From a virus (Duplodnaviria; Caudoviricetes): a DNA stretch of 64,000 nt. The notes under the pieces were generated by a model. The model did no database searches. It was not told the DNA's origin and saw nothing but the letters and a program-made list of their open reading frames with translations. The DNA lies in IMG/VR virus record IMGVR_UViG_3300021093_000004; one strand, written 5' to 3'. Below, one piece after another: positions 15,050-54,344 of this stretch. The translations under genes were made by a program, and so were the position numbers. The stretch's first letter is position 1. The number at the start of each line of letters is the position of its first letter.

Positions 15050-15086
15050 AGTGGCCCGGTTGACAACAACCGGGCCACTTTCGTTT
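15050..15086 (+). terminator. Intrinsic terminator after the major capsid gene
   Basis: 13-bp stem AGTGGCCCGGTTG / CAACCGGGCCACT with loop ACAA, followed by TTCGTTT. Confidence 0.8.
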
Positions 15087-16208: not shown

Positions 16209-17108
16209 ATGGCTACCAATTTTGATGATATTACGTTCGACGCACAATCGCATACCTATAGGCTTGGTAATCAGGCTCTGATTCCTGTTACGTCCATTGT
16301 GAAATGGTTGACTCCAGAATTCCGTAGTGACGAAATGTTGGAAACAAAAGCCGCCACATCTGGAAGATCGAAAGCGGATATCCAAGCCGAATGGGATTCG
16401 AAGCGTGATATTGGATTAGACAAAGGTACGCGGGTCCACAATTATATCGAGAATGTTCTTGAAGGACGTGATCCGCGTTTATTGCTTTCTGTCAACGACC
16501 ATTTACATGAAATGAAACAATTTGACATCGCCTGGGGGCGTATGTGCTCCAGATTGTCAGCGAAATTTGATCGTAAGGAGTGGACTGTTGGTGATGCTGA
16601 ATTAGGTGTTGCTGGGCGAGTGGATGCTATTTTACGGATCGTTATTGAATCCGAAGAAAAGCGATGCTTGTTCGACTGGAAGACTGGGAAATTCATGGTT
16701 CGGAAGTATGCTCGTGAAACGATGCTTCCGCCATTTGATGATCTTCCATGTTGTGAAGAAATTAAATATAGTATTCAGTTGAGCCTATATCGCTTGATTA
16801 TCGAACGAAATACCGATGAGCGATTATTCAATGGATTTATTCTACATCTCCCTGCCGAATATCAACACAATCTTTACAATGTAATCGATTTGCGAGAACG
16901 TCTTGAAACGTGGCTGCTTAAAATGCGGGCAGAAGGGCGTCTAGGCGATCCAGAGGGCGACAAGAAAGCCTTGCGAGTGGCTAAATCTCTGGATCAATTC
17001 GATGATGATATTCTTCGAATTCTGTCGCCGCAATCTCGCAAAAAATTGTTATTGAAAGCGGCGAAGTTGTTAAAGCGTGGCCAGCAATATTTTAATGAGC
17101 CGACATAG
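16209..17108 (+). CDS. PD-(D/E)XK nuclease (Cas4/AddB-like exonuclease)
   Basis: PVTSIV, KGTRVHNYIE, E..VGDAELGVAGRVDA, LFDWKTG, QLSLY. Confidence 0.85.
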   Translation: MATNFDDITFDAQSHTYRLGNQALIPVTSIVKWLTPEFRSDEMLETKAATSGRSKADIQAEWDSKRDIGLDKGTRVHNYIENVLEGRDPRLLLSVNDHLHEMKQFDIAWGRMCSRLSAKFDRKEWTVGDAELGVAGRVDAILRIVIESEEKRCLFDWKTGKFMVRKYARETMLPPFDDLPCCEEIKYSIQLSLYRLIIERNTDERLFNGFILHLPAEYQHNLYNVIDLRERLETWLLKMRAEGRLGDPEGDKKALRVAKSLDQFDDDILRILSPQSRKKLLLKAAKLLKRGQQYFNEPT

Positions 17109-17156
17109 AAGAAGGCCGCTTTCACGACCTTCTTCTATGTCGGCTCATTAAAATAT
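17087..17156. repeat. Perfect 29-bp inverted repeat with 12-nt spacer
   Basis: ATATTTTAATGAGCCGACATAGAAGAAGG (17087-17115) is the exact reverse complement of 17128-17156. Confidence 0.95.
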
Positions 17157-24907: not shown

Positions 24908-24988
24908 GTACATGTGGTGGAATGGTAGACACGCTGGTCTTAGGAGCCAGTGCCGTAAGGTGTGAGGGTCCGAGTCCCTCCGTCCACA
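24908..24988 (+). tRNA. tRNA-Leu(UAG), degenerate
   Basis: Anticodon arm CTGGT-CTTAGGA-GCCAG and long variable arm. Two acceptor-stem mismatches; the T loop reads TCCGAGT. Confidence 0.75.
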
Positions 24989-25079
24989 CTATTTAAGTAC
25001 CGTCAGCCGCAAGGCTACCATCGTGGAAATATCACGAAGGCGATGATCGTAGCCACAGTCCTTACTAAAGGCTCATAAT

Positions 25080-51359: not shown

Positions 51360-52667
51360 ATGGCGAAGATTAGTACGATCAAAGAAGCGATCATGATTTG
51401 TCGCGATGCCTATGTCACCCCATTCATCTGGGGCCATCGCGGGTTGGGTAAATCAAGTTTGGTGCAACAAGTTGCCGCCGAACAGTCTTGGGGGTTCATC
51501 GACCTTCGATGCTCTCAATTGGAAGCTTCCGATGTTCGTGGGCTTCCTGATCGTGTCAATGGTCGGACGCATTATCTTCCACCAGCCGATATGCCGGTCG
51601 GCGATCTTACTCTGGAACAGATCGAAGCGGAATTGGGCAAAATGCCAGATCCGGGCGATCTCGAAGCCGAACGTCAATACTATCTCAAGCTTCAAAGCTT
51701 GCAACCGCGATTCCAACGCGGAATCCTTTTCATCGACGAAGTGAACCGTGCCCAAGACGATGTGCTTCAAGCCATCTTCCAGTTGGTGCTCGACCGTCGC
51801 GTCGGGATGTATGTCCTTCCTCCCGGATGGTGCGTTGTTGCGGCGGGCAACTATATGGAAGGATACATGGTTACGGGGTTCAATGACCCTGCATTCTTGA
51901 ACCGATTCAGCCACCTGATTTTGAGTGGTGGCGAGACGACTCTCGAAGAGTGGGTCAATTACATGTCCGTCGCCCATGGTCCAACAGCGACCGATGTAAT
52001 CGAATTCGCTTCACAGAACACGAAGCATTTGGACGGTGATGTTGCGGGAGAACTTGGGTTTTCGATTCAGCCGTCTCGCCGATCGTGGGAAATGGTGGTT
52101 CGTGTTGATAAGGCTTGCGAAGCCGGTGGTTATAACGAAACCGCCAGAATAGAAGTGTTGGCCGGGTTGGTCGGTCGAGAATTGGCCCAAGCATTCACCC
52201 GCTATTCATGCCCTGTCAAGCCGCGTGAACTGATTCAACGTGGTGTGAAGGTCTTCGAAGACAAGCTTCGCAAATTGAGCCGGAACGAACTGACCGGTCT
52301 CATGTGGGGTATGGTTTCATTCTGCAAGACGCAGACCGAGAAAGACGAAATTGCTACTGTCTGCCTCGATTTCGCGGAATTCATGGTGGGTGTTACCAGC
52401 GACAAGGATGTTGTAGTTGCATTCTGCCGTGCGTTGGTCAGCGGTGGACACCCTAACGATAAACAGGAAAAGCCACGTGCTGCGGTAATCTCGAATCCGC
52501 GATTGGCAGAAATGATGAGCAAATTCGGCAAGAAAGCCGGAAACGACCGCAAATCGTTTGTGGATCGGTTGGTGGAACGCCCGGCATTGCAACAAGCTTT
52601 GGCCCGCGTTTCGTGGGGCTTTGATGATTCCGAAGAACCAGAACCCCCAAAGAAAGGCAAGAAGTGA
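51360..52667 (+). CDS. MoxR-like AAA+ ATPase
   Basis: WGHRGLGKS, IDLRCSQLEASDVRGLP, LFIDEVNRA, VVAAGN, DPAFLNRF, PSRRSWE. Confidence 0.9.
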   Translation: MAKISTIKEAIMICRDAYVTPFIWGHRGLGKSSLVQQVAAEQSWGFIDLRCSQLEASDVRGLPDRVNGRTHYLPPADMPVGDLTLEQIEAELGKMPDPGDLEAERQYYLKLQSLQPRFQRGILFIDEVNRAQDDVLQAIFQLVLDRRVGMYVLPPGWCVVAAGNYMEGYMVTGFNDPAFLNRFSHLILSGGETTLEEWVNYMSVAHGPTATDVIEFASQNTKHLDGDVAGELGFSIQPSRRSWEMVVRVDKACEAGGYNETARIEVLAGLVGRELAQAFTRYSCPVKPRELIQRGVKVFEDKLRKLSRNELTGLMWGMVSFCKTQTEKDEIATVCLDFAEFMVGVTSDKDVVVAFCRALVSGGHPNDKQEKPRAAVISNPRLAEMMSKFGKKAGNDRKSFVDRLVERPALQQALARVSWGFDDSEEPEPPKKGKK

Positions 52668-52676
52668 TCCCTGTGA

Positions 52677-52848
52677 ATTGATGCCAGTTAGATGTAGCGG
52701 AAACCTTACCGCTGTTGAGTTACGGGGAATGCACCCTAAGTCGGAGCGAGTGAAGCTGGTCGTGCTTGAACTAGCTGCGATGCCGAAAGGCAAAACCTCG
52801 GCAAGCTATCACATCGATGGGAGTTGAGACCCATTAACTGGTGTCAAT
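52677..52848 (+). ncRNA. Candidate multi-stem structured RNA (unassigned)
   Basis: 14-bp closing helix ATTGATGCCAGTTA/TAACTGGTGTCAAT (2 G-U pairs) enclosing GATGT/ACATC, AGCGG/CCGCT, TAGCT/AGCTA with a TGCC-GAAA-GGCA tetraloop hairpin, and ATGGG/CCCAT. Confidence 0.6.
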
Positions 52849-52886
52849 CTTTTGCCACAATGTAATATACCAACAGGGAGTTAAAT

Positions 52887-54344
52887 ATGAGACAGATAGC
52901 TGCGACAGTTCCGGGCGGGCGTGCTCCGGTTGATGAAAAACAAGCGGATCGATTGATGAAGGCTCGCTGCCGCCTGATGATGCGAGAGCCGTGGTACGGT
53001 CACGTTGCTATGAGCATGGTATGGATTCCCAGCCAAATGTCATGGATGGCAGAGAATCGCCGCACGATGGGTGTGCGGATTGTTAACGGTGGTGAGATTC
53101 AATGCTTGTATTATCCGCCGTTTATTGAGACTCTGAACATCAAAGAGTTATATGCGGTCATTCAGCATGAAATCGAGCATATTGTCCGAGTTCACTGTGT
53201 TCGCATTGGTGATCGTGAGCCTGAAGCGTGGAATATCGCCGCCGATATGACGGTGAATGGGCCTCGATCTTCACCACGAATTGGTTATTCAGACCCGACC
53301 ACGAACGAACTGGTGATTCCGTTTAAGAATCAGATCGTCTGGATTCCGGAAGATTGGCCGAAGGATGGAACTTCGGAGCAGTTCTACGATCAACTCAAGG
53401 AACGCCAGCAGACCAAGGTCTGTAACTCGTGTGGTCGCCCGACTCAAGGCCATGGGCAAGGGAAAGGCCCGAAGGGTCAGGGTCAAGGCCAAAAGCCGTC
53501 TCAAGGTGGCGGAACGCCAGGACAGGGCAACGGAACGCCAGAACAGGGCAACGAAACGCCTTCCCAAGGCAACGGAACGCCTCAGAATGGCGGTCAGCCG
53601 GATGAAAACACTTACCCCGGCTGCGGACAAGATCATGATGGCGTCTATCATTATGGTGGAGTTTCGGGGCGTGGATTGGATGACCACAGCGTCTGGAATC
53701 AGTCTGATGTGTCTCAAGATGAAGCCCGTCAGATTGTTAAGGATTTGGTAGATCAAGCGACTCAGAAATGTCAAGGTCATTTTCCGGGCCATCTGCAAGG
53801 TGCTATCCAAGAACTTGGAAAGCCAGTTGTTCGTTGGCGTGAATTGTTGCGACATTATCTTGGCAAGCATGTCGGCAATCAACGGTCCACATATTCTCGT
53901 CGGAACCGCCGCCGAGATTGGTTTGGTGTGCCTGGTATCAGCCACCACGCGGCTGCAAATGTCAACGTGATCGTCGATACGTCCGGTTCCATTGGTGTTC
54001 GTGAATTGGAGCAATTTTTCGCTGAAATTGATTCGATCAGCTCACGTGCAAAGACCATGGTGCTTCAATGGGATGCGGCATTTCAGGGATACGAGAAGTA
54101 TCGCCGTGGCGATTGGAGAAGATTCAAGATCACTGGGCGTGGCGGCACTGACATGGCTAAGCCTGTGCAGTGGGTAATTGATAATCATCTGGTGGCCGAC
54201 GTTCAGGTCATGTTGACGGACGGCTATTGCAACTACACCGATGCTTCGAACGTAAAATTCCCGATTATTACGGTGATTACCACCCCAGAAGGTACTACTA
54301 ATAGCCCTCCATACGGGCATGTCGTTAGGATGAAGGTGGCATGA
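52887..54344 (+). CDS. DUF2201-type putative metallopeptidase plus VWA domain protein (AAA partner)
   Basis: QHEIEH (HExxH), WNIAADMTVN, VIVDTSGSIG (MIDAS), GRGGTD, LTDGY; QGNGTP repeat linker (4 x 21 bp, 53502-53585). Confidence 0.88.
   Translation: MRQIAATVPGGRAPVDEKQADRLMKARCRLMMREPWYGHVAMSMVWIPSQMSWMAENRRTMGVRIVNGGEIQCLYYPPFIETLNIKELYAVIQHEIEHIVRVHCVRIGDREPEAWNIAADMTVNGPRSSPRIGYSDPTTNELVIPFKNQIVWIPEDWPKDGTSEQFYDQLKERQQTKVCNSCGRPTQGHGQGKGPKGQGQGQKPSQGGGTPGQGNGTPEQGNETPSQGNGTPQNGGQPDENTYPGCGQDHDGVYHYGGVSGRGLDDHSVWNQSDVSQDEARQIVKDLVDQATQKCQGHFPGHLQGAIQELGKPVVRWRELLRHYLGKHVGNQRSTYSRRNRRRDWFGVPGISHHAAANVNVIVDTSGSIGVRELEQFFAEIDSISSRAKTMVLQWDAAFQGYEKYRRGDWRRFKITGRGGTDMAKPVQWVIDNHLVADVQVMLTDGYCNYTDASNVKFPIITVITTPEGTTNSPPYGHVVRMKVA

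What the first reader, a model, noticed from the sequence alone, without database searches (positions are those of the whole stretch)
52677..52848. Unassigned 172-nt multi-branched RNA between MoxR-like AAA and VWA genes
Nearly the whole intergenic space folds: a 14-bp closing helix with G-U pairs, an inner GATGT/ACATC helix, at least four hairpins including a GAAA tetraloop, and a 3' ATGGG/CCCAT hairpin followed by TCTTTT. I could not match it by eye to c-di-GMP, glycine, TPP, cobalamin, SRP, tmRNA, hammerhead or group I/II intron consensus. G-U pairs in long stems point to selection at the RNA level. It may be a new riboswitch, attenuator, ribozyme or sRNA controlling the ATPase:VWA ratio (inference).
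Basis: partly seen in the sequence, partly recalled or inferred. Interest (0 to 1): 0.74.

Follow-up and report, generated by a model that had tools for sequence, protein, structure and literature searches.

The report
New folded RNA in lake jumbo phage
A 172-base stretch between two assembly-chaperone genes of an uncultured lake jumbo phage is a real, selectively maintained, intricately folded RNA that matches no Rfam family, but it occurs in only one small phage clade and its job is still unknown.

Summary
Window 52677-52848 (+ strand) folds into a 14-bp closing helix around a three-way and a four-way junction (z -4.5). The fold recurs in every close relative found: three full copies, two partial variants, and one shortened tandem copy.

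- **Structure support:** on five sequences 98% of cells pair. Eleven of 56 pairs change on both sides, against 3.7 in shuffles.
- **Strand:** 22 G-U cells against 3 C-A cells point to a plus-strand RNA.
- **Selection:** the element stays 76-90% identical, while fourfold-degenerate sites of the flanking genes are saturated at 31-40%.
- **Novelty:** no Rfam 15 family matches, even at E up to 10.

The link to the ATPase:VWA pair is weak. About 45 more distant loci keep the same gene order without the RNA. There the spacer runs from overlap to 2 kb, and two loci carry plain terminators at this spot. A promoter-like box precedes the VWA gene with or without the element.

My best reading is an ornate 3'-end or terminator domain of the ATPase transcript that yields a stable, partner-binding RNA. 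Ribozyme, riboswitch and RNP-scaffold readings remain open. No expression data exist. The scan had noted this same stretch before in an overlapping window, not on other DNA.

The parts
51360..52667 (+). MoxR-like AAA+ ATPase gene (435 aa). Its stop codon lies 9 nt before the element.
   Evidence: Pfam AAA_16/AAA and phrog_1297 ATPase. Homologues called MoxR-like ATPase by JGI.
52677..52848 (+). The structured RNA element as a whole (172 nt).
   Evidence: Fold z -4.47. CM R1 scores 192.9 bits on + and 10.6 on -. Conserved in L002, L003, L004 and L106.
52677..52690 (+). P1 5' strand. It pairs with 52835-52848 in a 14-bp closing helix.
   Evidence: 100% paired in 4 sequences, with 4 pairs changed on both sides.
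52691..52695 (+). P2 5' strand (GAUGU). It pairs with 52811-52815 (ACAUC) and stacks on P1.
   Evidence: U-A changes to C-G in L004 and to U-G in L003.
52696..52713 (+). P3 hairpin: 5-bp stem with an 8-9-nt loop. Retained in the mini copy.
   Evidence: G-C changes to A-U in L004. Present in L004 2136-2244.
52715..52719 (+). P4a 5' strand (UUGAG), the candidate partner of 52765-52769 (CUUGA).
   Evidence: Wobble pairs become Watson-Crick in L004, L106 and the X22 variant. The 3' strand is deleted in L002.
52724..52737 (+). P4 hairpin (GGGG/CCCU, 6-nt loop). Retained in the mini copy.
   Evidence: G-U alternates with G-C across homologues, 100% paired.
52740..52744 (+). Px 5' strand (GUCGG), the candidate pseudoknot partner of 52798-52802.
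   Evidence: 5 of 5 pairs hold in all 5 sequences, with two both-sided changes in L004. It crosses P4a and P5.
52750..52763 (+). P5a hairpin (GUGA/UCGU).
   Evidence: UCAC in L002. G76-C85 becomes A-U in the X22 contig variant (52752 G>A with 52761 C>T).
52772..52808 (+). P5 arm (52772-52778 with 52801-52808) enclosing P6 and a conserved asymmetric internal loop (GA / AAACCYCG).
   Evidence: Only one-sided changes and 3 mismatched cells. This is the weakest helix.
52781..52792 (+). P6 hairpin with a GAAA tetraloop (52785-52788). L003 and L004 carry a 50-60-nt extended hairpin here.
   Evidence: Two pairs changed on both sides. Variable-length insertion.
52817..52834 (+). P7 hairpin (AUGGG / CCCAU), the third arm of the P1-P2-P7 junction. 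Retained in the mini copy.
   Evidence: G-C changes to A-U in L004.
52835..52848 (+). P1 3' strand.
   Evidence: See P1 5' strand.
52849..52853 (+). C plus a U4 run directly after P1 (U6 in L002, L003 and L004). Possible termination tract.
   Evidence: Read directly. L003 and L004 also have a matching A-run 5' of P1.
52850..52868 (+). Promoter-like box (TTTTGCCACA ... TAATAT) ahead of the VWA gene.
   Evidence: TGC[CA]ACA plus an AATAT-like box recur 30-50 nt before the DUF2201 start in many relatives, with or without the element.
52876..52880 (+). Shine-Dalgarno GGGAG of the downstream gene.
   Evidence: Read directly. AAGGAG and UGGAG sit at the same place in L003 and L004.
52887..54344 (+). 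DUF2201_N (putative metallopeptidase) plus VWA-like DUF2201 gene (485 aa).
   Evidence: Pfam 2e-23 and 8e-19. 478 homologues, many on 100-440 kb contigs.

Best explanation
Shown: this is a genuine plus-strand structured RNA of a family not in Rfam. It has nine to ten helices. P1, P2 and P7 form a three-way junction. P2, P3, P4a and P5 form a four-way junction. A candidate 5-bp pseudoknot may clamp two arms together. It is kept by purifying selection in one narrow clade of uncultured freshwater jumbo phages.

Inferred mechanism:
1. The RNA is transcribed as the tail of the MoxR-like ATPase message, starting 0-9 nt after the stop codon.
2. The very stable P1 clamp followed by a U-run ends or stalls transcription and shields the 3' end. 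Sister lineages place a plain terminator hairpin at this same position.
3. The sequence-conserved core is P3, the AGUUA linker, P4 and P7, which is the part also kept in the shortened tandem copy. It is a recognition surface for a partner, most likely a protein. The product would then be a stable, folded RNA with a role of its own rather than a bare terminator.
4. The VWA gene downstream is probably served by its own promoter-like box.

The RNA is a clade-specific acquisition in a hypervariable spacer. It is not an ancestral regulator of the gene pair.
For: - **Fold:** z -4.47, -5.50 and -4.60 in three diverged copies.
- **Covariation:** 98.4% of cells pair. Eleven pairs change on both sides against 3.7 +/- 1.5 in shuffles (0 of 500 reach it). 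Slid controls give 0-2.
- **Natural variant:** 13 differences in the X22 contig include 7 in helices, and none breaks a pair.
- **Strand:** 22 G-U cells against 3 C-A cells. The CM scores 193 bits on + and 11 on -.
- **Selection:** element identity 76-90% against 31-40% at fourfold sites of both flanking genes.
- **Not coding:** the only ATG is lost in L002, L106 and X22. Indels of 1, 7, 43 and 52 nt break every frame.
- **Position:** the element starts at or just after the AAA stop in all copies and ends with U4-U6.
- **Terminator analogy:** L006 and L022 have canonical hairpin-plus-U terminators at the same place.
- **Separate promoter:** a promoter-like box lies between the element and the VWA start, also in relatives without the element.
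- **Peripheral variation:** P6 varies in length, and a mini copy keeps only the core.
Against: - There are no transcript data, so the 5' and 3' ends and the RNA's stability are unknown.
- A terminator stem that encloses 144-196 nt is unusual, and the terminator scan does not call it.
- The U-run could instead belong to the promoter-like box that follows it.
- The mini copy in L004 has no U-run of its own.
- One low-depth contig variant (X24) appears to lack the P1 3' strand and the U-run.
- No partner protein has been identified.
- Only five or six distinct sequences exist. The fold of the central domain (P4a, P5, Px) is ambiguous.
Confidence: 0.4

Rival explanations
1. Cis-acting sensor or attenuator for the VWA gene. 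The folded domain would bind a metabolite or a protein, possibly the ATPase or the VWA protein itself. Binding would set how often transcription passes the P1/U-run, or how well the nearby ribosome-binding site is used. This would tune VWA output relative to the ATPase.
For: The element lies 38 nt before the VWA start with a U-run after P1. It has a complex fold with many invariant unpaired bases and a candidate pseudoknot. A ribosome stopping at the AAA stop codon, 0-9 nt before P1, would cover the P1 5' strand, so termination could be coupled to translation of the ATPase gene (inference).
Against: P1 is 14-19 bp long and constant, and I found no alternative anti-terminator pairing. The pair works without the element in about 45 other lineages. 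A promoter-like box sits downstream of the element. The mini copy lacks half of the fold. The downstream gene is not of a type usually governed by a riboswitch.
Confidence: 0.15
2. Trans-acting RNP scaffold or cofactor. In this reading a free, stable RNA works with the MoxR-VWA chaperone pair or another phage or host protein. The analogies are Y RNA with the VWA-bearing Ro60 protein, and phi29 pRNA with its packaging ATPase.
For: It has a long 5'/3' closing stem plus a multibranched module, like Y RNAs and pRNA. It lies next to an ATPase gene and a VWA gene. The core is sequence-conserved and also present in the mini copy. Jumbo phages of this group are proposed to use the MoxR-VWA pair in virion assembly (PMC7824862).
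Against: The seven neighbouring ORFs tested contain no TROVE/Ro domain. ARAGORN and Rfam find no tRNA-like module. There is no match to Y_RNA or Phage_pRNA models at E up to 10. Most phages with the same protein pair have no such RNA.
Confidence: 0.15
3. Self-cleaving or otherwise catalytic RNA of a new class. It would cut the ATPase-VWA transcript between the two genes.
For: Its compact, junction-rich fold with a candidate pseudoknot and invariant junction bases is typical of small ribozymes. It is phage-borne and intercistronic. A tandem arrangement occurs in L004.
Against: No known ribozyme model matches. No cleavage site can be inferred. The mini copy lacks the central domain yet is conserved in its core.
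Confidence: 0.1
4. Selfish or passively carried structured insertion, like a MITE or REP element. It would have landed in a hypervariable spacer and have no function for the phage.
For: The spacer between the two genes is a hotspot with variable cargo. The element is clade-restricted. L004 holds a tandem partial duplicate. The P1 arms look like terminal inverted repeats.
Against: It is single-copy in the 64-kb window even with CM filters off. It is absent from five complete related jumbo-phage genomes and from IMG/VR and GTDB pattern scans. It is under strong purifying selection with compensatory changes throughout the interior, not only in the arms. G-U pairs in the arms are mismatches at the DNA level.
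Confidence: 0.07

Closest known systems
Intrinsic (Rho-independent) terminators and intercistronic 3'-end stabilising hairpins of phage operons, such as the plain hairpin-plus-U sites at the same position in relatives L006 and L022
   Same: Located directly after a stop codon. A stable stem is followed at once by a U-run, with an A-run on the 5' side in L003 and L004. It occupies the position where sister lineages carry ordinary terminators.
   Different: The stem encloses a 144-196-nt conserved multibranched domain instead of a 3-8-nt loop. Many unpaired bases are invariant, which a terminator does not need.
Bacterial and phage Y RNAs (YrlA) with Ro60
   Same: An RNA of roughly 100-200 nt whose 5' and 3' ends form a long stem below a multibranched module. 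It is encoded beside a gene for a VWA-domain protein.
   Different: No TROVE domain in the neighbours tested. No tRNA-like arm. No Rfam Y_RNA match.
phi29-type packaging RNA (pRNA, RF00044)
   Same: A phage RNA of about 170 nt with a 5'/3' helix and a three-way junction, functionally tied to an ATPase.
   Different: No model match at E up to 10. Different phage type, genome position and ATPase family.
Orphan structured RNA motifs from comparative genomics of phages and metagenomes (PMC10690425, PMC5737381)
   Same: Defined only by covariation and conservation, phage-borne, function unknown.
   Different: No Rfam model of such motifs matches. Pattern scans of IMG/VR, the collection used in PMC10690425, found no copy. 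That paper's text mentions no AAA, VWA, MoxR or jumbo-phage context.

Membership tests
Any Rfam 15 family (4227 models) | Covariance-model score at or above the family's gathering threshold | tested here: not met
   No hit on the element at gathering or at E up to 10 in the window. On the L003 and L004 versions only noise of 13-19 bits appears, against gathering scores of 50-74 bits.
Intrinsic terminator | Stable stem followed within 0-2 nt by a U-rich tract | tested here: met
   P1 (14-15 bp) is followed by C-UUUU in the window and by U6 in L002, L003 and L004.
Intrinsic terminator | Simple hairpin with a short loop | tested here: not met
   The loop is a 144-196-nt branched domain. The consensus scan does not report the site.
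Intrinsic terminator | Transcript 3' ends at the U-tract | not testable with these tools
   No listed run that holds the stretch is on record as RNA.
Riboswitch | Conserved aptamer plus a mutually exclusive alternative pairing (expression platform) | tested here: inconclusive
   A conserved complex fold is present. No alternative partner for the P1 strands appears among covarying column pairs. Only competing pairings inside the central domain were found.
Riboswitch | Ligand binding | not testable with these tools
   Needs in-line probing or ITC.
Y RNA / Ro60 RNP | Ro60 (TROVE) gene nearby | tested here: not met
   Seven ORFs between 47577 and 58053 show no TROVE hit. The rest of the genome was not searched.
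Y RNA / Ro60 RNP | tRNA-like module or Y_RNA model match | tested here: not met
   ARAGORN finds tRNAs only at 21-26 kb. No tRNA or Y_RNA hit on the element at E up to 10.
Small self-cleaving ribozymes (hammerhead, twister, twister-sister, pistol, hatchet, HDV-like, hairpin) | Match to the class consensus | tested here: not met
   No Rfam hit.
Small self-cleaving ribozymes (any, including new classes) | Site-specific self-cleavage | not testable with these tools
   Needs an in vitro transcription and cleavage assay.
MITE / REP-like repeated element | Several dispersed copies per genome | tested here: not met
   One copy in the 64-kb window with CM filters off. None in 5 related complete jumbo-phage genomes. 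Only a tandem mini copy in L004. The rest of the 235-kb genome could not be searched.
Small protein gene | Conserved open reading frame | tested here: not met
   The ATG at 52681 becomes ACG in L002, L106 and X22. Indels not divisible by three occur.

The most novel reading that the evidence does not exclude
The element founds a new class of globular functional RNA carried by giant freshwater phages. It could be a new self-cleaving ribozyme. It could instead be an RNA cofactor or regulator that physically engages the MoxR-VWA assembly chaperone, a phage counterpart of Y RNA with Ro60. In either case a pseudoknot-clamped four-way junction would be its active core.
Probability: 0.2. Interest if true: 0.8.

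Novelty: new variant of a known kind. Interest (0 to 1): 0.5.

Why it matters
Giant phages of lakes are almost unstudied, and their non-coding RNAs even less. This RNA has the fold complexity usually seen in ribozymes, riboswitches or RNP scaffolds. It sits where relatives have a plain terminator, beside the MoxR-VWA chaperone pair that PMC7824862 proposes acts in virion assembly. If it is more than an ornate terminator, it would give a new RNA class and a handle on how these phages control or assist assembly. If it is only a terminator, it shows how a simple regulatory hairpin can grow into a large conserved RNA domain. The narrow distribution (five or six sequences, no cultured host) limits immediate impact.

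Tried and rejected
- **Wider search for family members.** All of the following found only the window's clade or nothing:
  - blastn against INPHARED phages with the element and with the 3-kb locus.
  - Two IUPAC pattern scans of IMG/VR and one of GTDB genomes.
  - CM R1 over 105 loci totalling about 560 kb.
  - nhmmer --max over all loci held at that point, L001-L093 plus the window.
  - CM R1 over five complete related jumbo-phage genomes.
- **Records not reachable.** A whole-genome search of the window's own record, and of the Logan and JGI contigs behind L003, L099 and L100, was not possible.
- **Expression.** No RNA holder is listed among 24 runs; all are lake-water DNA metagenomes. Laying contigs gave two natural variants but no transcript ends.
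- **Literature.** Searches for DUF2201, for MoxR/VWA with non-coding RNA, and for jumbo-phage structured RNAs found nothing that describes this element.
- **Coding reading rejected.** The 49-codon frame from ATG 52681 loses its start in L002, L106 and X22, and indels break the frame.
- **MFE long helix rejected.** The window's MFE pairs CGAGUGAAGCU with AGCUAUCACAUCG. L003 breaks this helix, and it competes with the covarying P2.
- **UUGAG/CUCAA hairpin rejected.** The L003 MFE contains it, but it is not conserved.
- **GAAA tetraloop with an 11-nt-receptor look-alike.** The CCUAAG / UACGG look-alike at P4 occurs in the window only, so I treat it as coincidence.
- **TTTTG[AC][CT]ACA as a general promoter.** It is not enriched in the window.
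- **One failed script.** timed out because of an inefficient shuffle. It was redone with mononucleotide shuffles.

Full report
**1. What is there**

The 219-nt spacer 52668-52886 lies between two plus-strand genes.
- Upstream is an AAA+ ATPase at 51360-52667 (Pfam AAA_16/AAA, phrog_1297).
- Downstream is a protein with a DUF2201_N putative metallopeptidase domain and a VWA-like DUF2201 domain, at 52887-54344.

Iyer et al. (PMC7824862) describe a MoxR-vWA pair with this domain layout, the vWA part fused to an N-terminal metallopeptidase, in group 2.2 jumbo phages. They propose that it is a chaperone/co-chaperone pair for virion assembly.

The window belongs to an uncultured lake-water phage.
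- Its ATPase is found on contigs up to 235 kb.
- The runs that hold the stretch are all lake or freshwater DNA metagenomes.
- No cultured phage has a close homologue; all are below 33% identity.

**2.

- 52677-52848 folds at -65.4 kcal/mol, z -4.47, with 0 of 200 shuffles as good. The opposite strand gives z -2.96.
- The closing 14-bp helix, the GAUGU/ACAUC helix, the hairpins (one with a GAAA loop) and the AUGGG/CCCAU hairpin are all present.
- The T-run follows the closing helix, not the last hairpin.
- Rfam 15 gives nothing on the element at gathering thresholds or at E up to 10. The longer homologues also give nothing.
- ARAGORN finds no tRNA or tmRNA there.

**3. Homologues and structure**

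I collected 105 related loci through the two flanking proteins. The element is present only in the closest relatives:
- L002 11-175.
- L003 2286-2497.
- L004 2246-2469.
- L106 2642-2783, cut off by the contig end.
- A contig variant in run X22.
- A 109-nt mini copy in tandem just upstream in L004, at 2136-2244.

Six further loci are identical copies of the window.

On five sequences my ten-helix model has 56 pairs.
- 98.4% of cells pair.
- Eleven pairs change on both sides, against 3.7 +/- 1.5 in shuffles (0 of 500 reach it). Slid controls give 0-2 (four-sequence versions).
- P1, P2, P3, P6 and P7 each carry at least one fully compensated pair. P5a gains one from the X22 variant (52752 G>A with 52761 C>T).
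- All 13 differences of the X22 variant either fall in loops or keep pairing.
- G-U cells outnumber C-A cells 22 to 3, and the CM scores 193 bits on plus against 11 on minus. The functional molecule is therefore the plus-strand RNA.

Other structural points:
- P6 is a 4-bp GAAA-capped stub in the window, L002 and L106. In L003 and L004 it is a 50-60-nt extended hairpin, the usual behaviour of a peripheral RNA arm.
- The mini copy keeps P1, P2, P3, the AGUUA linker, P4 and P7 and lacks the central P5/P6 domain.

The central domain is not resolved. Three helices cross one another, so they form either a pseudoknot or alternative folds:
- P4a (52715-52719 with 52765-52769).
- P5 (52772-52778 with 52801-52808).
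- Px (52740-52744 with 52798-52802; two compensated pairs in L004).

Constrained folding gives the two nested alternatives similar energies.

**4. Selection and coding**

- Against the window, fourfold-degenerate sites of both flanking genes are 31-40% identical, which is saturated. The element is 76-90% identical.
- It is not coding. The only ATG (52681) is ACG in L002, L106 and X22, and indels of 1, 7, 43 and 52 nt separate the copies.

**5. Context argues against an ancestral ATPase:VWA regulator**

- In 55 loci that show both genes (about 45 non-redundant lineages), the order AAA then DUF2201 is kept. The estimated spacer runs from overlap to 2.1 kb.
- Several lineages hold three to six small ORFs there (L094, L095, L096).
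- L006 and L022 have ordinary hairpin-plus-U terminators at the same place.
- Neither the CM (all loci), nor nhmmer (L001-L093 and the window), finds the element in any of these loci. The CM also finds it in none of five complete related 250-410-kb phage genomes. Pattern scans of IMG/VR and GTDB genomes find no copy either.
- Within the 64-kb window it is single-copy even with filters off.
- A box TGC[CA]ACA followed by an AATAT-like box lies between the element and the VWA start. It recurs 30-50 nt before the DUF2201 start in many relatives that lack the element. The VWA gene therefore probably has its own promoter.

**6. How it most likely works**

Shown: a selected, strand-specific, complex RNA fold that begins 0-9 nt after the ATPase stop codon. 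It ends in a 14-19-bp clamp followed by U4-U6.

Inferred:
- It is the 3' domain of the ATPase transcript.
- P1 plus the U-run terminates or pauses transcription and protects the 3' end.
- The conserved core is a binding surface that gives the released or retained RNA a function beyond termination.

I put 0.4 on this reading. The rivals are:
- A ligand- or protein-responsive attenuator for the VWA gene (0.15).
- A free RNP scaffold in the manner of Y RNA or pRNA (0.15).
- A new self-cleaving ribozyme (0.10).
- A selfish insertion (0.07).

The remainder is left for readings I did not name. None of these can be excluded without transcript or biochemical data, and no RNA run holds the stretch.

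**7. Novelty and verdict**

The family is new with respect to Rfam and to the literature I could search. I rate it a new variant of a known kind: an ornate terminator or 3'-UTR RNA domain. I give about a one-in-five chance that it is a new functional RNA class. Interest is 0.5. The structure is real and unusually elaborate. Against that, the distribution is narrow, there is no cultured system, and there is no functional handle yet.

The same stretch had been noted once before by this scan in an overlapping window (e1-5362569), not on other DNA.

Noticed in passing
L004:2136-2244: A 109-nt mini copy of the element sits in tandem just upstream of the full copy and overlaps the ATPase stop codon. 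It keeps P1, P2, P3, P4 and P7 and lacks the central domain. It scores 63 bits with the CM and folds with z -3.0.
   Followed up: partly
window 52850-52868, and 30-50 nt upstream of the DUF2201 start in L007, L015, L016, L018, L019, L022, L025-L028, L038, L040, L094, L095: A conserved TGC[CA]ACA box, often followed by an AATAT-like box, precedes the DUF2201 start across distant relatives. It is a candidate gene-specific promoter or operator. The short motif is not enriched in the window as a whole (21 matches against 20.7 expected).
   Followed up: partly
window 52835-52864 (run X24 contig): A 2024 freshwater-metagenome contig of a near relative appears to lack 30 nt covering the P1 3' strand, the U-run and the promoter-like box. 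It is a single low-depth contig that starts at 52799, so the upstream part is unseen.
   Followed up: no
window 24908-24989: ARAGORN calls a tRNA-Leu with anticodon CUA, a possible amber suppressor. Amber read-through in this phage may deserve a look.
   Followed up: no
proteins P0034 (841 aa) and P0086 (816 aa): Two DUF2201 homologues carry a LAGLIDADG_3 (PF14528) domain and are about 350 aa longer than the rest, which suggests inteins inside this gene in some jumbo phages.
   Followed up: no
window 52721-52740 and 52785-52788: In the window only, P4 and its flanks read UACGG ... CCUAAG, one base away from the classical 11-nt GAAA-tetraloop receptor, and P6 carries a GAAA loop. The receptor-like sequence is not kept in the other copies, and L003 and L004 have no GAAA loop.
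   Followed up: partly
window 17094-17149 and 15050-15079: Palindromic hairpins that match only the closing-helix part of the CM, equally on both strands (14.5 and 12.9 bits). They are unrelated to the element.
   Followed up: no
L094, L095, L096 between the AAA and DUF2201 genes: Three to six small ORFs (72-199 aa, no Pfam hits) occupy the spacer in sister lineages, so this inter-gene site is a cargo hotspot.
   Followed up: partly
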